Assembly: GCF_018350175.1 (NCBI RefSeq) | Contig: NC_058368.1 | Coordinates: 49,353,815-49,417,814 of the forward strand | From: Felis catus | Taxonomy: Eukaryota | Length of the DNA: 64,000 bases | Direction of reading: 5' to 3' | Shown: positions 15,525 to 64,000 of the stretch, piece by piece | Position numbering within the stretch: position 1 is the first letter of the stretch | Layout of the letters: every line of letters starts with the position of its first letter | Position numbers and translations under genes: made by a program | Notes under the pieces: generated by a model | Database searches by the model: none | Told to the model about the DNA's origin: nothing | What the model saw: the letters and a program-made list of their open reading frames with translations, nothing else

Positions 15525-15726
15525 GGGGCACCTGGGTGGCTCAGTCAGTTGAGTGTCTGACTTGGGCTCAGGTCATGATCTCATGGTTTGTGAGTTCGAG
15601 ACCGCATCAGGCTCTGTGCTGACAGCTTGGAGCCTGGAGTCGGCTTCAGATTCTGTGTCTCCCTCTCTCTCTGCCCCTCCCCCACTCATGCTCTGTCTCT
15701 CCCTTTCTGTCAAAAATAAACATTAA
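15525..15726 (+). mobile_element. Can-SINE
   Basis: TSD AAAAATGT(A/G)TATTTTACT at 15507-15524 and 15727-15744. Confidence 0.96.
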
Positions 15727-15989
15727 AAAAATGTGTATTTTACTGAGTTACAAGACATTTCATAATCATGGATGGGTAGCCAGAGGTCATAAGAATGTAC
15801 AAAGATTAACAAAATATATATTTTTAATAAAGAAACTGTAGCTAATTTGTCATGAGATGGCCTCTGCATGCCTTTCTGTAGGCTCTTTCTTACTTCTGTA
15901 GCCACAAAAGTAAGCTGGATTCTTGTGGAGTCTTGCACTCACACTCACAGCAAGAATAAAGAGAGTCACTTAAAAATTACATAAATTGA

Positions 15990-30874: not shown

Positions 30875-32089
30875 AGACCTAAATGTGAGACTGGAAACCA
30901 TCAAAACCCTGGACAAGAAAACAGGCAACAACCTCTTTGACCTCAGCTGCAGTAATTTCCTGCTCGACACATCTCCAAAGCAAGGGAATTAAACGCAAAA
31001 ATGAACTACTGTGACTTCATCGAGATAAAAAGCTTCTGCACTGCAAAGGAAACAATCAACAAAACTAAAAGGCAACTGACAGAATGGGAGAAAGACATTT
31101 GCAAATGACATATCGGATAAAGGGCTAGTATTCAAAATCTACAAAAAACTCACCAAACTCCACATTCGAGAAACAATCCAGTGAGGAAATGGGCAGAAGA
31201 CATGAATAGACACTTCTCCAAAGAAGACACCCACAGGGCCAACAGACACATGAAAAGATGCTCAATGTCGCTCATCATCAGGGAAATACAAAGTAAAACC
31301 ACTCTGTGATACCACCTCACACCAGTTAGAGTGGCTAAAAGTAACAACTCAGGAAACAACGGATGCTGGCAAGGATGTGGAGAAACAGGAACCCTCCTGT
31401 ACTGTTGGTGGAAATGCAAACTGGTGCAGCTGCTCTGGAAAACAGTGTGGAGGTTCCTCAAAAAATTAAAATCAGAAATACACTATGACCCAGAAATAGC
31501 ACTACTAGGAATTTACCCAAAGGATATAGGAGTGCTGATGCATAGGGGCACATGTACCCCAATGTTTATAGCAGCACTTTCAACAATAGCCAAATTACGC
31601 AAAGAGCCCAAATGTCCATCAACTGATAAATGGATAAAGAAGATGTGGTTTATATATACAATGGAATACTACTTGGCAATGAGAAAGAATGAAATCCTGC
31701 CATTTGCAGCAATGTGAATGGAACTGGATGGTATTATGCTAAGTGGAATAAGTCAGTCAAAGACAGATACCATATGTTTTCACTCATATGTGGAACTTGA
31801 GAAGCTTAACAGAAGACCATGGAGGCAGGCAAGGAGAAAAAATAGCTACAAACAGAGAGGGAAGGAGGCAAACCATAACAGACTCTCAAATACAGAGAAC
31901 AAACTGAGGGTTGATGGGGGAAGGGGTTGGGGGAGAGGGGAAAATGGGTGATAGGCAGTGAGGAGAGCACTTGTTGGGATGAGCACTGGGTGTTGTATGT
32001 AAGTGATGAATCATGGGAATCTACCCCCAAAACCAAGAGCACACTGTATACACTGTCAGCCAACTTGACAATAAATTATATTTAAAAAA
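30875..32089 (+). mobile_element. 5'-truncated felid/carnivore L1 (ORF2 C-terminus + 3'UTR)
   Basis: ORF 31331-31717 encodes the L1 ORF2 C-terminus ([32 protein letters not shown]...CPSTDKWIKKMW). The 3'UTR ends GACAATAAATTATATTTAAAAAA. Confidence 0.95.
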
Positions 32090-32370
32090 GCAATTATGAT
32101 ACAAACTAAAATTCAGTGCATTTGAATATAAAAGGAAAAAAAGTCATTTGTTGTGTAACTACCACATGCAAGGTGCTGTGCTAGGGACAGAGGTGGGGAC
32201 TAAAAAGCAAGACTCTGCTATGTCTTCTGTTATAGATCAGAAATCTTCCAAGAAATGATCCAATTAACCCTGAATTGTGAGGTCCACAAATGTTTGTTTC
32301 CTATTGGAAATAAAGAGAACTTGTGAGCCAAAAAACTAAATAAATAAAATTGAAAAAAAAAATAATAAAT

Positions 32371-32500
32371 TGGAGCCTTATTGAATCAGCCAAATCTGTA
32401 AACCCTTGCCTCAAAAATATAAACTTTCTTAAAATTTCCTCATTGTTTAAGTCCATTTTAGTGGTGTATTATTTACAGGTAAAGACACCCCAACTCTTAC
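32371..32500 (+). mobile_element. MaLR LTR (MLT1J-like), 3' part
   Basis: GAGCC...TGAATCAGCCAA...CCTCATTGTTTAAG...ATTTACAG...CACCCCAACTCTTACA resembles the MLT1J 3' terminus. Confidence 0.6.
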
Positions 32501-37875: not shown

Positions 37876-37984
37876 GTGTGCAGGGGTGTAGGTGTGCGGG
37901 GGGGTGTAGGTGTGAAGGGGGGTGTAGGTGTGCAGGGGGTGTAGGTGTGCAGGGGGAGTAGGTGTGCAGGGGGAGTAGGTGTGT
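37876..37984. repeat. G-rich minisatellite, ~6 copies of a 16-19 bp unit (GTGTGCAGGGGG(T/A)GTAG)
   Basis: Directly visible. Confidence 0.93.
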
Positions 37985-38420
37985 TATTTTCACATTTAGA
38001 TATCAAAGTGATACTGGTTCTATTAAAAAAGATGAAACACGAGTCCTTTCTTTCCTTCTCTATGCCATTAAAAAGGTAGAAGAGTAACGAATAACCTGTT
38101 CCCTGGTAGTTATAAATATTTACCTGTGAAGTCATTTGGGGCCTAATTTTACCAGTTTCTTCCATCACTATTTGTCTATTTGGGTTTCCTCTCTCTTCCA
38201 TCTCTGCTTTAGATATGGTTTTGTCATAGATAATTCCACATTCCATAGAGTGAAAAAGTCTATGCAGACACATTGGAAACAAAGTACACTTTTAGGAGTC
38301 TTCAGTTCATTTTATTTTGACTATTTCCTAGTATTCCATTTTAACTTTCACTCACATTTTCCCTAAATTAGGCCACTTAATGATTTATCTACGTTATTGC
38401 ATAGAAGTATATATTTTTCT

Positions 38421-38472
38421 TTTCTTTTTAATATGAAATTTATTGTCAAATTGGTTTCCATACAACACCCAG
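38421..38472 (-). mobile_element. Ultra-short (52 bp) felid L1 3'-end insertion
   Basis: ATATGAAATTTATTGTCAAATTGGTTTCCATACAACACCCAG is the reverse complement of the L1 end at ~61296-61340. TSD AG(A/G)AGTAT(A/G)TATTTTTCT at 38403-38420 and 38473-38490. Confidence 0.92.
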
Positions 38473-38647
38473 AGGAGTATGTATTTTTCTAAAGAGCCAG
38501 CTGCTCAATTGGAAAACAAAATACATTCACCGGAAAAAATGTTGCCATAAAGCAGATAAAATTTAGGGCCAAATATCTGTATGAATTTGAAAAATAAAAA
38601 ACCGTAAAAGAAGGAAGTTGCCTCTATAAAATACAACCATAAATATA

Positions 38648-51977: not shown

Positions 51978-53444
51978 AAATGTAAATGGACTAAGCACTC
52001 TAATCAAGAGACATAGTGTGATGGAATGGATTTAAAAAAATGATTCATCTATATGCTGCTGGTAAGAGACTCATTTTCAACCTAAAGACACCTGCAGATT
52101 TAAAGTTAGGAGATGGAGAAACATTTCTCATGCAAACAGATGTCAAAAGAAAGCTAGAGTAGCAACACTATCAGACAAAATAAACTTTAAAACAAAGAGA
52201 CAAAGAAAGACACTATATAATAATCAAGGGTACAATCCAACAAGAACATAACTGTAAATATTTATGCATCCAAATATATAAAACTGTTAATAACAAAGAT
52301 TAGTCTCTAAATGACGATAATACATTAATAGTAAGGGACTTTAGCACCCCACTTACATCAATGGACAGATCACCTAAACAAACAAACAAAAAAATCAATA
52401 ATAATGGCTTCGAATGACACAATGGACCAGATGAATTTAATGTATATTCAGAACATTCCATCCTAAGACAGCAAAACACATTCTTTTCAAGTGCACATGA
52501 AACACTGCCCAGAATAGATTATGTTAGGCCACAAAACACACCTCAACAAATTCAAGATCTAAGTCAAACCATGCATCTTTCTCAACAAAATGCTATGAAA
52601 CTAGAAATCAACTACAAGAAAAAATCTGGGAAGAGCACACATACGTGGTAATTAAATAACATGCTACTAAATAATGAATGCGTCAATGAGGAAATAAAAA
52701 AAATACAGTACATGGAAACAAATGAAAGTGAAAACAATGGTTCAGAATCTTTGGGATGCAGCAAAAATTGTTCTAAGAGGGAAATATATAGTAATACAGG
52801 TCTACCTCAAAAAGCAAGAAAAATCTCAAAAACCCTAACCTTGCACCTAAAGGATCTAGAAAAAGAACAATAAAAACCTAAAGCCAAAGATTAGAGCAAA
52901 AGTGAATGACCTAGAAACTAAAAATAAATAATAAATAAATAAACAAACAAACAGATTGATGAAATAACAAACTATTTCTTTAAAAAAATTACTAAAATTG
53001 ATCAACTTCTGGCCAAATTCATCAATAAGACAAAGGACTTAAATAAAATCACAAATGAAGAGAAATAACAACCAACACCACCACAGAAACGCAATTCCAA
53101 CAAAATATTATGGAAAACTCTATACAAAAAAATTGGACTATCTGCAATAGATAAATTCCTAGAAACAAACTACCAACTGAAAAAGGAAGAAATAGAAAAC
53201 CTGAACAGACTGATAACCAGTAAAGAAATTGAATCAGTAATCAAAAAACTTCCAACAAACAAAAGTCTTGTTTGGAGTTTTGACCAGATGGCTTAACAGG
53301 TGATTCTACCAAACAATTAAAGAAGAGTTGATAGCTATTCTTCTCAAACTATTTCCCCAAAAAAATAGGAAAGGAAGGAAAACTTCCAAATTCATTCTAT
53401 GAGGCCAATGTTACCCTGATGCCAAAACTAGATAAAGACACCAC

Positions 53445-58069: not shown

Positions 58070-60230
58070 GAGTGAGTCTGTAGACTTTCTGCTAAATAAT
58101 CATTAAACTGGTGAAAATTACCAAAATACAGCTATTTACAAACTGCTGGAAATTGACCTAAGTTAGGTAATAAATTGAGAAGCATTTATTCAAATAAATT
58201 TACAGAAAATTAGTAAGGACAGTGTTCATCTATGGCATTTAAGCCAGAAACTGCTCCCATCCTCCATCCCCCACTTACTCTGCAGTTTTTCAAAAGGTTT
58301 ATTCTAGTTGGGCAGGGCCGCAAAAAGGCTGGCTCCCTTTTCCCTTCTCCCCCTCTCCTTCCTTCAGTTGTAAGGCAATAGTTTCACTCTGAAGAGTTCC
58401 CTTGTAGCCAACCCTAAGTTCTAGGTTTCCAAAGATGTACTCCAGAAGGGTACAACTAAGGAGATAATATCTCCCAACCCTACTCTACTTCACTTCTAGG
58501 GTAAAGGCTCTATCCTGGTCAGGCATGGCAAGCCAGGACAAAGAGACTTAGGGCTTTCTTTGCCTCTGCCTTACCCCTCCAACCCCAGCATCTGCTCATA
58601 AACAGAAGTTCCATGCCAGTTAGAATAACTCAAAAAAAAATGGGGACTCCCGTTCTTCCAAGCTTCCTCTTAGGGCAATAAAGTCACTCTGGGAGAAGCA
58701 GACCCTGTTCCATTCCCCTCCCCAGCACTGTACACACAACTTCTGCCTAGAGAGGAGGCAAGAGTTGAAGACTGGCAACTCCACGGGACTGGCTGACGGG
58801 GCTGACTTAATTTGGAACAGAGGGTATAGGAATCCCTGCATTCAAGCATACTCTGTCCAATAGAAATCATAGTAATATACAATTAGAGAAGTAAATGGAT
58901 ACTAGTAACATCAAACAAAACAGAAGATCCACCCACCAGAAGTTTGACAAAGAAGGACATAAGGGAAAAAAGACAACCCAAAAAAAAGGCCCTGATAAGA
59001 TCACACTCAATCCTAGCAGTCTGGAAGGTTGTACACATAAACTAGAGTACACCACTCTGAAGCAATTCAACTGTTAATCCGTGGCTATAAAAGCATGCAG
59101 ATTTGAAATCTTCCTGAAATGGGAAGAAGTCTTACTATCTCAGAAGGCTTAATCACAATCCTTAATTAGTCACTGGCTGAAGACTAACCTTTGTTGACCC
59201 AGGAACAACTCCTACAATTCCAAAATTGAAAATTAAGAAGCGAAAAAAATTCTAAGCACTGACATAAGAGTTTGCACACTTAAGAAGTAGACTTGGCAGA
59301 ATCAATTCAAGCAATCTACTAAACAAATAAATAGAACCAAGCAACAGTAACAAGTCCCATGATGAAAAATGATTAAGTGCAGACATTATATAGAATGTCT
59401 TATTACAAAAAAATTAGACATGAGAAAAACAGACAGTATGACTCATACAGAAGAAAAAACCAATCAGGCAATAGATAATAATTTTGAGGAATCCCATATA
59501 CTGGACTTAGACAAAGATTTCCAATGAGTTACTATAAATATATGTAAAGAACTAAAGGAAATCATTCCCCCAAAAAAAAAAGAAAGAAAAAGAAAAGAAA
59601 GAAAGAAAGAAAAGAAAGAAAAGAAAGAAAAGAAAGAAAAGAAAGAAAAGAAAGAAAAGAAAGAAAAGAAAGAAAAGAAAGAAAAGAAAGAAAAGAAAGA
59701 AAAGAAAGAAAAGAAAGAAAAGAAAGAAAGAGGAAAAAAAAGAAAATTAGGATTCAAATACACAGTAACAAACATATAGGAATTACCCAAAAAACAAGAC
59801 ATTCTGGAGTTGAGATGTACAATAACTGAAGTGAAACTTTAGTTTACTAAAGTGGACTCAGAAGTACGTTTGATGCAGAATAATGAATCTGAGAACTCAA
59901 AGGGGAAAAAACCTAGAGATTATCCAATGTGGACAAAAAAAAATGTAATAAAAGATGAACACAATCTCAGAAAACTTTGAGAAACCATTAAGATCAGTAG
60001 TATCTGCATAAATGAGTAGAACAGAAGGAGAAAACACAGGAAAACAAAGTTTAGAAAATCACTGAAAACTCTCCAAATATGATAAACATTTAACTACACA
60101 TCCAAAAATCAACTTGCTCCAAGCCAAATATACACAAAGAGATGCACATCTAGACAATCAAAATATTAACACCCAAAGACAACAAAAAGGTCTTGAAAGC
60201 AGGGGAAAATGGGCCACCACCTACAGTGAA
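58070..60230 (+). mobile_element. Old L1 5'UTR + ORF1 remnant (L1ME 5'-end-like)
   Basis: CTGGAAATTGACCTAAG...AAATTGAGAAGCATTTATTCAA...CTGCTCCCATCC, with ORF1 motifs ACTGGACTTAGACAAAGATTT and ATTCTGGAGTTGAGATGTACAATAACTGAA. Confidence 0.7.
59572..59746. repeat. Homopurine tract with ~13 copies of GAAAGAAAA
   Basis: Directly visible; contains only A and G. Confidence 0.97.
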
Positions 60231-60975: not shown

Positions 60976-61219
60976 ATAATATTTGGCATCCATCCTGTCA
61001 TAGAGTACATTCTAAGTGATGGGTTAAACTACTGAGGTGGCATTTATATTCAAGTAAGTTAGTCTATCCTAATCAATAGTGAGATATCTTGAATATACAG
61101 ATTCACACACAAAAAGATTTTGTTTTTCTAGTATTCTGTACTAAATTTATATTACATATGAAATTACTGACTTTGTGCATACATTATTAAAAGACTGTTC
61201 ATAAGAATTTGCTATGATA

Positions 61220-61505
61220 CTGGATTATTTGTTTTTCAGGCAGGAGGGGAGGGTGGGTGATGGGTATTGAAGAGGGCATCTTTTGGGATGAGCACTGGGT
61301 GTTGTATGGAAACCAATTTGACAATAAATTTCATGTATTAAAAAAAGGAAATATGTAAAATTCTTGATTTTACTTTGAATACAAAAACAAAAATTAAAAA
61401 ATAAATAATCATTGAACAGGTAACATTGCAAAGCATGATAATAATCTCATGAGTGAGAATTTTAGGAAATAAACAATTTATCTTTGCTGACAGTCAAAAA
61501 AAAAA
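61220..61505 (+). mobile_element. Short felid L1 insertion with 5' inversion and 3' transduction
   Basis: Perfect TSD AAGAATTTGCTATGATA at 61203-61219 and 61506-61522. Contains the L1 3'UTR end (61243-61346), non-L1 sequence (61347-61495), AATAAA at 61468 and poly(A) from 61496. Confidence 0.88.
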
Positions 61506-61558
61506 AAGAATTTGCTATGATAGAATAAAAATGATTTAAGAATTATAACTGAGTATCT

Positions 61559-61770
61559 GGGGCGCCTGGGTGGCTCAGTCAGTTGAACGTCTGACTTCAG
61601 CTCAGTTCATGATCTCGCGGTTTGTGGGTTCGAGCCCCGCGTTGGGCTCTGTGCTGACAGCTCAGAGCCTGGAGCCTGTGTCAGATTCTGTGTCTCCTCT
61701 CTCTGCCCCTCCCCCACTGGTGCTCTATCTCTGTCTCTCAAAAATAAATAAATGTAAAAAAATTTTTTTA
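61559..61770 (+). mobile_element. Can-SINE
   Basis: Perfect TSD AAGAATTATAACTGAGTA at 61538-61555 and 61771-61788. Confidence 0.97.
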
Positions 61771-62521
61771 AAGAATTATAACTGAGTAGCTTTACCAGTC
61801 CTATGCAATGTAAAAGCATTTACAATGATTGTCTTCCCTATGGCATTCATGCTGAGAAAAGATTCTGAAAGGAATCTGAGAGACTTTAATGTTGTCTTCA
61901 AGACCATCTTTAAGCTAAAACTAGTTGCTTATAATTATAATTTAATAAAACTACAAATACAGCTTTCAACTAAATTTTAGAATGGTGTTGGTTACCTACT
62001 GACCAAATGATACTCAAAGGTTTTCCTATTCAAAGAAGAGTGGTGTTGGCTCCCTTGATACTACTTCAAGTTCTCGTTGAAGCCACTAACTCTTAGGGCA
62101 TTTAAAACCCTTCATTTTCTTCTTTGCTATCCCTTCGCAAACTTGTGCCCACCTAGGGTAGAAACTCTTAGGTACTCTTCACTATATAAAGGACCTAGTC
62201 ACCAAAGATGGCATTTCATCAACTATAAGCCAAAATTCTGGGATCTTTGGTCATTTTTACTATGCTGTCTCAGTGTACTTCTACAAGCTCATGGTCACAT
62301 AATGTCTTTTTCAGATTTTATGTTATCTTTAAATGTAGCTAGGACAGACAAAAGACACAAGTAGATAGTTTGTAAAAGAATTAAGACTAAGAAATACCCT
62401 AATTTTTTTCCCTAATTTTTTGCCCTACCAGTAATCAAATTGAAAGAATGAGATACCATTTTGTGAGTATTTAACTGGCCAAAATTTTAAGTTATAGCAA
62501 TGCTTATCAGGAGGCAAAATA

Positions 62522-62633: not shown

Positions 62634-64000
62634 TATGATGTTTAAGTATGTTCCTTCTATCCTGACTTTAAGGGCTTTCATCAAGAAAGGATGCTGTATT
62701 GTGTCAAATGCTTTTTCTGCATCATAGAAGCCATTTATGAAAAGCCCACAGCTAATATCACCCTCAATGGGGAAAAACTGAGAGCTTTCCCTCTGAGATC
62801 AGGAACATGACAGGGATGTCCACTCTCACAGTTGTTGTTTAACATAGTGTTGGAATTTCTAGCATCAGCAATCAGACAACAAAATGAAATAAGAGGCATC
62901 AAAATTGGCAAAGATGAAGTCAAACTTTCACTTTTCACAGACGACATGATACTCTAGATGGAAAACCTGACAGACTCCACTAAAAGTCTGAGAGAATTGA
63001 TATCTGAATTTGGCAAAGTCGCAGGGTACAAAATTAATGTAAATAAATCAGTTGCATTTTGTACACCAATAATGAAGCAACAGGAAGAGAAATAAAGAAA
63101 TTGATCCCATTCACAATTGCAACAAGAACCATAAAATACCTAGGAATAAACCTAACCAAAGAGGTAAAAGATCTGTATGCTGAAAACTATAGAAAGCTTC
63201 TGAAGGAAATTGAAGAAGACACAAAAAAATGGAAAAATATTCCATACTCATGGATTGGAAGAATAAGTATTGTTAAAATGTCAATACTACCTAAAGCAAT
63301 CGACACATTCAATGCAATCCCAATCAAAATTGCACCATCATTCTTCTTAAAGCTAGAACAAACAATCCTAAAATTTGTATGGAACCACAAAAGACCCCGA
63401 ATAGCCAAAGTAATGTTGAAAAAGAAAACCAAACTGGGAGGCACCGCAATCCCAGACTTTAGCCTCTACTACAAAGCTATAATCATCAAGACAGTGTGGT
63501 ATTGGCATAAAAATGGACACATAGACCAATGGAATAGAATAGAGACTCCAGAAGTTGACCCACAAATGTATGGCCAACCAATCTTTGACAAAGCAGGAAA
63601 GAATATACAGTGGAAACAAGACAGTCTCTTTTAACAAATGGTGCTGGGAGAACTGGACAGCAACATGCAGAAGAATGAAACTAGACCACTTTCTTACACC
63701 ATACACACAAATAAACTCAAAATGGATAAAGGACCTGAATGTGAGACAGGAAACCATCAAAACCCTAGAGGAGAAAGCAGGAAAAGACCTTTCTGACCTC
63801 AGCCACAGCAATTTCTTACTTGACACATCTCCAAAGGCAAGGGAATTAAACACAAAAATGAATTATTGGGACCTCGTGAAGATAAAAAGCTTCTGCACTG
63901 CAAAGGAAACAATCAACAAAACTAAAAGGCAACCAACAGAATGGGAAAAGATATTTGCAAATGACCTATCAGAAAAAGGGCTAGTATCCAAAATCTATAA
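62634..64000 (+). mobile_element. Relatively young felid L1 ORF2, 5'-inverted, running off the window end
   Basis: Antisense ORF2 at 62634-62723, then sense ORF2: SGT*QGCPLS, FTDDMIL* (RT catalytic motif mutated, followed by a stop) and ORF 63059-63634 ([27 protein letters not shown]...). Inactive. Confidence 0.95.

What the first reader, a model, noticed from the sequence alone, without database searches (positions are those of the whole stretch)
61203..61522. 286-bp L1 insertion combining twin-priming inversion, 3' transduction and possibly serial transduction
Seen, between perfect 17-bp TSDs (AAGAATTTGCTATGATA): (a) 61220-61240, whose reverse complement CCTGAAAAACAAATAATCCAG resembles L1 ORF2 sequence (cf. 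...GAGAAACAATCCAG at ~31168-31181, about 750 nt upstream of the 3'UTR end in that copy); (b) the last ~100 nt of a felid L1 ending in A7; (c) ~150 nt of non-L1 DNA with AATAAA 22 nt before (d) a poly(A) tail. An internal A-rich block (61381-61408) may be an earlier tail. Established: twin priming yields 5' inversions, and read-through yields 3' transductions. Inference: a recent event whose tag can trace a source-L1 lineage, perhaps over two generations.
Basis: partly seen in the sequence, partly recalled or inferred. Interest (0 to 1): 0.75.

Follow-up and report, generated by a model that had tools for sequence, protein, structure and literature searches.

The report
Tiny flipped L1 with hitchhiked DNA
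A 286-base scrap of a cat-family LINE-1 jumping gene has a 21-base piece of itself pasted in backwards and 149 unrelated bases that it likely carried along from its previous home; it is a compact but ordinary example of two well-known accidents, and a two-step journey remains possible but untested.

Summary
The anatomy is real. An exact 17-nt target-site duplication encloses 286 nt: 21 nt of antisense L1 ORF2, about 100 nt of L1 3' end with A7, 149 nt of non-L1 DNA with AATAAA 22 nt before an A10 tail. The 21-mer fits the codons of felid ORF2p (TRKTNNPV) with one mismatch; 3 of 3000 shuffles and 0 of 3000 window 21-mers do as well. Best reading: one read-through L1 RNA, likely inserted by twin priming with a 750-nt internal gap. 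The combination is textbook: the first reported 3' transduction (DMD, 1994) was inverted, and 44 of 287 human inverted insertions in one table carry a transduction; 24 of 287 have gaps of 700 nt or more. The internal A-rich block is tail-like (7 of 852 tiles match it) but lacks a poly(A) signal 10-30 nt upstream, so serial transduction is about 0.3. 'Recent' is not shown. Donor locus and empty site could not be tested: no genome is held and no sequencing run was listed. The scan noted the same combination before on other DNA of this genome. Ordinary; interest 0.15.

The parts
61203..61219 (+). 5' copy of the 17-nt target-site duplication; bottom-strand nick motif TCTT/AT at 61202/61203
   Evidence: the same motif is listed for a human insertion in Table 1 row 112 of PMC4859970
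61220..61240 (-). 21-nt inverted piece of L1 ORF2 (codons of TRKTNNPV, about 210 residues before the end of ORF2p); the arginine codon reads TGA
61239..61240 (.). GG that can belong to either piece: possible 2-nt microhomology at the inversion junction
   Evidence: fit ends at 61240; older copy 26607-26603 aligns from 61239; weak
61239..61339 (+). non-inverted last ~100 nt of a felid L1 3' UTR with its own AATAAA at 61323-61328
61340..61346 (+). A7, likely the remnant of the source L1's tail or the start of its target-site copy; ATTAAA at 61337-61342 spans the junction
   Evidence: role inferred
61347..61380 (+). first 34 nt of non-L1 tag
   Evidence: no other copy in the window
61381..61408 (+). 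A-rich block, 22 A in 28 nt, like a decayed poly(A) tail; origin open
61409..61495 (+). last 87 nt of non-L1 tag with AATAAA at 61468-61473, ending at a C-A step
61496..61505 (+). poly(A) tail of the insertion, A10
61506..61522 (+). 3' copy of the target-site duplication

Best explanation
This is a 5'-truncated L1 insertion with an inverted 21-nt ORF2 piece and 149 nt of non-L1 DNA inside one target-site duplication, likely made in a single step from one read-through L1 RNA by twin priming. Steps: (1, inferred) a source L1 was transcribed past its own AATAAA and cut at the C-A step 22 nt after the downstream AATAAA; (2, motif shown, enzyme inferred) the L1 endonuclease nicked TCTT/AT and poly(A)-primed reverse transcription copied the tail, the 149-nt flank and about 100 nt of 3' UTR, then stopped; (3, orientation shown, mechanism inferred) the second nick 17 nt away primed on the same RNA about 750 nt further upstream, in ORF2, and copied only 21 nt; (4, inferred) the two cDNA ends were joined, possibly through GG, which lost the 750 nt between them. 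The A-rich block most likely already lay in the donor's flank as an old tail or A-rich patch. The element has no promoter or frame and is predicted to be inert. Core (inversion plus transduction) about 0.8; a single generation, given the core, about 0.65.
For: Exact 17-nt TSD, 0 of 2000 shuffles, in the 12-18 nt range reported for 5'-inverted insertions (PMC11702581 passages). Antisense ORF2 fit, 1 mismatch of 21, nulls 3 of 3000 and 0 of 3000. The L1-3'-most end of the inverted piece abuts the TSD, as the model needs (model). AATAAA 22 nt before the tail; 274 of 349 human transduction ends have a signal 10-30 nt upstream (PMC13009371 section 9). The same-type L1 end at 38403-38472 goes straight into its tail without the tag. 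Gaps of 700 nt or more: 24 of 287 human inverted insertions, 5 of them with a transduction (my count by eye of Table S12). No AATAAA or ATTAAA 10-30 nt before the internal A-block.
Against: No donor locus or empty site was seen. Microhomology at the priming junction is only 1 nt by the older copy, whereas about 70% of 605 human inverted L1s show 2-5 nt and 28 of 605 none (PMC2912911 section 12). The geometry is atypical: median internal deletion 14.5 bp, shortest inverted piece in Table S12 49 nt by its coordinates (probably a mapping floor). The internal A-block is rarer than chance: 7 of 852 tiles, 2 of 700 without SINE and L1 tails, 2 of 94 A-rich tiles, 37 of 10000 shuffles, which favours serial transduction. 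The ORF2 fit is at codon level only, against five proteins that cover the C-terminal half of ORF2p. 'Not part of the L1 consensus' rests on one same-type copy.
Confidence: 0.52

Rival explanations
1. Serial transduction. A grandparent L1 (A7) read through 34 nt and was polyadenylated; its full-length daughter landed elsewhere with that tail (now the A-rich block), read through 87 nt of its new flank, and gave this twin-primed copy.
For: The block is tail-like beyond chance and stays so for window sizes 20-40 nt (18, 9, 7, 10, 10 of 852 tiles). Very short transductions are common in humans: 248 of 349 under 100 bp, modal 37 bp for one source, and about a fifth end without a scored signal. An ATTAAA ends 38 nt before the block. 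Serial transductions are stated to exist (PMC4859970) and nested sources were seen (PMC10415145).
Against: No AATAAA or ATTAAA 10-30 nt before the block. The statistic was chosen after seeing the block and is weak at 15 nt (57 of 852). The block also resembles SINE tails of this window (18 of 20 to 15711-15730), so an old tail in one donor flank explains it too. L1s insert in A-rich DNA (established knowledge), which raises the base rate above that of random tiles. No locus mapping was possible.
Confidence: 0.28
2. The tag is a transduction, but the inverted 21-mer did not come from twin priming on the same RNA: it was copied from a second L1 RNA at the second nick, or it was inherited from a donor that was already 5'-inverted and was transcribed from a host promoter, this copy being cut off 21 nt into the old inverted part.
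For: 750-nt gap, 21-nt piece and 1-nt priming microhomology are all at the edge of published distributions. Insertions joining oppositely oriented cDNAs from two RNAs are reported (PMC11702581 passages; dual priming proposed in PMC2837659). The TGA in the ORF2 frame would fit a dead donor.
Against: The piece comes from the same element type and from upstream of the non-inverted part, as one RNA predicts. Close human parallels exist: G_8000 (51-nt inverted piece, 1385 gap) and S_1573 (92 nt, 777 gap). One CpG transition after insertion explains the TGA.
Confidence: 0.12
3. The tag is not the flank of a source L1: it is a 3' extension shared by a small L1 sublineage, or the 3' end of a host mRNA on which reverse transcription began before switching to L1 RNA.
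For: No donor was seen; the tag ends like an mRNA (AATAAA, C-A step, tail).
Against: The junction falls exactly at the L1 3' end and its A run, where read-through puts it; the same-type copy at 38403-38472 has no extension. No coding signal: Pfam gives one sub-threshold hit (E 0.069, 14 bits against a cut-off of 27.7) and the protein search none (weak evidence).
Confidence: 0.08

Closest known systems
LRE2-derived L1 insertion in DMD (Holmes et al. 1994; seen only as row 82 of Table 1 and text of PMC4859970)
   Same: 5'-truncated, inverted, with a 3' transduction, inside a 15-nt TSD; the first reported L1 3' transduction.
   Different: Human, 1400 nt with 489 nt transduced and a known source; here 286 nt, 149 nt, a 21-nt inverted piece and no source identified.
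5'-inverted (twin-primed) L1 insertions with internal deletion (Ostertag and Kazazian 2001, seen only as cited; PMC12016303 section 8 and Table S12; bioRxiv 2024.08.27.596794 passages)
   Same: TSD, antisense piece from upstream in L1, then sense 3' end and tail; 66% of 1,703 inverted insertions have an internal deletion.
   Different: Gap about 750 nt against a median of 14.5 bp; inverted piece 21 nt, shorter than any of 287 rows of Table S12 (minimum 49 by coordinates); priming microhomology 1 nt.
Partnered short 3' transductions (PMC13009371 passages and section 9; canine set in PMC13141329 passages)
   Same: L1 end, A stretch, unique DNA, signal 10-30 nt before a second tail; 30% of partnered transductions were also inverted.
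   Different: There the source is mapped; here it is not. The tag has an extra internal A-rich block.
Serial transductions and L1 transduction families (Szak et al. 2003, seen only as cited in PMC4859970; PMC6425141 and PMC10415145 passages)
   Same: Two unique segments parted by an A-rich tract would be the expected form.
   Different: Those were shown by mapping each segment or family member; here no mapping, and no standard signal before the inner tract.

Membership tests
L1 insertion by target-primed reverse transcription | flanking target-site duplication | tested here: met
   17 of 17 nt, 0 of 2000 shuffles
L1 insertion by target-primed reverse transcription | 3' poly(A) tail and endonuclease motif (YYYY/RR type) | tested here: met
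   A10; TCTT/AT; motif also in PMC4859970 row 112
L1 insertion by target-primed reverse transcription | empty orthologous site with one copy of the TSD | not testable with these tools
   no genome held; no run listed
Twin-primed 5'-inverted L1 | antisense L1 piece next to the 5' TSD, taken from upstream of the sense piece, its L1-3' end at the TSD | tested here: met
Twin-primed 5'-inverted L1 | microhomology between TSD end and RNA at the priming site | tested here: inconclusive
   1 nt by the older copy; 2-5 nt is usual, none in 28 of 605
Twin-primed 5'-inverted L1 | microhomology at the inversion junction | tested here: inconclusive
   GG can be read in both pieces, judged from one old copy
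Twin-primed 5'-inverted L1 | both cDNAs from the same RNA molecule | not testable with these tools
   21 nt carry too little information; gap of 750 nt is uncommon (24 of 287 at 700 or more)
Partnered 3' transduction | non-L1 DNA between the L1 3' end and the final tail, inside the TSD, with two A stretches | tested here: met
   no L1 ORF2 match above noise among 121 proteins (best E 0.26)
Partnered 3' transduction | poly(A) signal 10-30 nt before the final tail | tested here: met
   AATAAA 61468-61473, 22 nt
Partnered 3' transduction | tag is not part of the L1 subfamily consensus | tested here: inconclusive
   absent behind the one same-type 3' end and two older ends in the window; no consensus library on hand
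Partnered 3' transduction | tag maps to a donor locus downstream of a source L1 | not testable with these tools
Serial 3' transduction | inner tail-like A tract between two unique segments | tested here: met
   22 A in 28 nt; 7 of 852 tiles, 37 of 10000 shuffles; statistic chosen after the fact
Serial 3' transduction | poly(A) signal 10-30 nt before the inner tract (usual, 274 of 349 ends) | tested here: not met
   nearest ATTAAA ends 38 nt before, AATAAA 52 nt before; not filed as serial
Serial 3' transduction | the two segments map to different loci, the second behind an L1 that carries the first | not testable with these tools
   no felid DNA searchable

The most novel reading that the evidence does not exclude
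A three-generation felid L1 pedigree written in 286 nt: a 34-nt tag from the grandparent, an 87-nt tag from the parent, and a twin-primed micro-inversion of 21 nt across a 750-nt gap. Such micro-inversions lie below the shortest piece (49 nt) in a published human table, so they may be a hidden share of insertions now scored as plain 5' truncations with 'untemplated' bases; the two tags would name two source elements of the cat family.
Probability: 0.25. Interest if true: 0.35.

Novelty: new member of a known kind. Interest (0 to 1): 0.15.

Why it matters
Little by itself: each step is described and the combination is common. Its uses are practical. The 149-nt tag would identify a source L1 once felid genomes are searched, and one literature search listed no paper on L1 transductions in felids. 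The locus is also a clean test case of how short an inverted piece and how long an internal gap can be, which matters for tools that classify 5' junctions.

Tried and rejected
Own genome: none held. Exact-pattern scans for the L1 3' end in viral contigs, metagenome contigs and prokaryote genomes, and for the tag in metagenome contigs: 0 matches each; these collections are not expected to hold cat DNA, so this is no evidence. Related-locus scan with a felid ORF2 piece in viral contigs: 9 candidates, 0 confirmed. Earlier-findings look-ups by sequence for tag and whole insert, and by place for relatives and near: nothing; by words: 0. Local templating of the tag from the neighbourhood: rejected, no copy in the 64 kb. 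Tag as old L1 ORF2: best tblastn E 0.26; ORF1 and UTRs not covered. Tag as a coding exon: a 51-codon open frame on the minus strand gave one sub-threshold Pfam hit and no protein relative. Tag as structured RNA: Rfam hits only the neighbouring SINE. DNA-level test of the inversion inside the window: inconclusive, since the young L1 at 62724-64000 is cut off just before the site and older copies are too diverged. Ostertag and Kazazian 2001, Szak 2002 and Szak 2003 are not held; supplements of the bioRxiv preprint, which hold the deletion-length distribution, were not seen.

Full report
Question. No genome is held for this window, so the tests rest on the window, on L1 proteins from public collections and on the literature.

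Boundaries. 61203-61219 and 61506-61522 are identical over 17 nt and differ at the next base on both sides. The 17-mer occurs twice in the window, and 0 of 2000 shuffles of the 2-kb region hold any exact 17-mer repeat. The bottom strand at the left edge reads TCTT/AT, a motif listed for a human insertion in Table 1 row 112 of PMC4859970 (passages). The insert ends in A10 (61496-61505; the run of 12 includes two bases of the TSD). These are the marks of an L1-made insertion. The empty site was not seen.

L1 part. 61295-61333 is identical over 39 nt to a short L1 end at 38434-38472, followed by a 2-nt insertion; 61244-61311 is 82% like the older copy at 31935-32002. The short copy goes straight into its tail and has no trace of the tag. 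The element family is felid by the window's young L1, whose four best named ORF2p relatives are lion proteins at 88-89%; subfamily names were not available from any call.

Inversion. Its last 121 residues fetched 120 listed relatives of 2258. The five best read HTRKTNNPVKKWA a few residues past the cut, and the reverse complement of 61220-61240 reads *KTNNP. Scored against all 950 eight-residue windows of those five proteins, the 21-mer fits the codons of TRKTNNPV with 1 mismatch; the sense strand has 6. Nulls: 3 of 3000 shuffles and 0 of 3000 non-L1 window 21-mers reach 1 mismatch. The mismatch turns the arginine codon into TGA; the older copy has CGA nearby, so a CpG transition is likely. 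The fit worsens beyond 61240. The L1-3' end of the piece abuts the TSD, the orientation that twin priming needs. Priming microhomology is 1 nt by the older copy. GG at 61239-61240 can be read in both pieces, on weak grounds.

How unusual is that geometry? Median internal deletion 14.5 bp among 1,120 of 1,703 inverted tumour insertions (bioRxiv 2024.08.27.596794, passages); 132 of 287 within 20 bp (PMC12016303, section 8). In Table S12 of that paper (all 287 rows seen; counted by eye, duplicates kept) 24 have a gap of 700 nt or more (13 of 106 germline, 11 of 181 somatic), 44 carry a transduction (5 and 39), and 5 have both. The shortest inverted piece by coordinates is 49 nt, probably a mapping floor; G_8000 (51 nt, gap 1385) and S_1573 (92 nt, gap 777) are close parallels. 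About 70% of 605 inverted human L1s have 2-5 nt of priming microhomology and 28 have none (PMC2912911, passages and section 12). So the insertion is at the edge of known distributions, not outside them. Opposite cDNAs from two RNAs are a reported alternative (PMC11702581 and PMC2837659, passages).

Transduction. 61347-61495 (149 nt, 24% G+C) has no second copy in the window by blastn or nhmmer, no match above noise to 121 L1 proteins, no Rfam family, no Pfam hit above cut-off and no protein relative (2 candidates, weak evidence). AATAAA at 61468-61473 lies 22 nt before the tail, and the tag ends at a C-A step. 274 of 349 human transduction ends have a signal 10-30 nt upstream (PMC13009371, section 9). 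The donor was not found: pattern scans of non-mammalian collections were empty and the run search listed none; neither is evidence.

Serial or single. For: the block 61381-61408 has 22 A in 28 nt; 7 of 852 same-size tiles reach that, 2 of 700 after leaving out 152 tiles near SINE, L1 and microsatellite tails, 2 of 94 A-rich tiles, and 37 of 10000 shuffles. The result holds for windows of 20-40 nt and weakens at 15 (57 of 852). Short transductions are common (248 of 349 under 100 bp). Against: no AATAAA or ATTAAA lies 10-30 nt before the block (nearest end 38 and 52 nt before); the statistic was chosen after seeing the block; the block also resembles SINE tails of this window; and L1 targets are A-rich (established knowledge). 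My estimate is 0.3. Serial transduction is itself known (stated in PMC4859970 citing Szak 2003; nested sources in PMC10415145; a 14-member family in PMC6425141; passages only).

Age. The perfect TSD and the 39-nt identity to a sibling speak for a young subfamily. The A10 tail (median 34 bp for polymorphic human L1s), the lost CpG, the absence of any CpG in the insert and the 2-nt insertion speak against a very recent event. A TGA in the source would have cut ORF2p about 210 residues short (by dog P0026), so it more likely arose after insertion. I infer a fixed or old polymorphic copy; this is untested.

Comparison and novelty. It works like a twin-primed, partnered 3' transduction and meets the sequence features that could be tested; same-RNA origin, donor and empty site could not. 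The first reported L1 3' transduction was also inverted (PMC4859970 row 82), and 30% of partnered transductions were inverted in one tumour set (PMC13009371 passages). Dogs have mapped transductions (PMC13141329 passages). One search for LINE-1, felid, transduction and retrotransposition listed 5 papers, none on this by title or abstract start; the library lacks most subscription journals. Earlier notes of this scan record the same combination and a possibly serial case on other DNA of this genome (unchecked AI notes, not support). A second inverted L1 lies 1.1 kb away.

Verdict. Observation confirmed; interpretation partly supported; new member of a known kind; interest 0.15. Boldest reading not excluded: a two-generation tag with a sub-detection micro-inversion, probability 0.25, interest 0.35.

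Noticed in passing
window 62634-64000: A second 5'-inverted L1: about 90 nt of antisense ORF2 (62634-62723; 81-84% to lion ORF2p over 31 residues) joined to sense ORF2 that runs off the window. The two pieces are nearly adjacent in L1, with a few bases seemingly shared: the classic twin-priming form, 1.1 kb from the finding.
   Followed up: partly
window 61535-61785: A tRNA-derived SINE (61558-61765) sits 35 nt to the right of the insertion with its own duplication of about 18-21 nt; both duplications begin with the same seven bases AAGAATT.
   Followed up: partly
window 38403-38490 (minus strand): A very short L1 of the same type, about 45 nt of 3' end plus tail, between imperfect repeats of about 18 nt.
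   Followed up: partly
window 61341-61493 (minus strand): The tag has a 51-codon open frame on the minus strand; sub-threshold Pfam hit only and no protein relative; likely chance in T-rich DNA. On the plus strand 61417-61425 resembles a splice donor (recalled consensus).
   Followed up: yes
window 32334-32482 and 52896-53044: The two other tiles without SINE tails that hold a 22-of-28 A block; both look like orphan or unmasked retroelement tails.
   Followed up: no
window 59574-59745 and 37876-37983: A 9-nt-period purine repeat of 19 copies and a 17-nt minisatellite of 6 copies.
   Followed up: no
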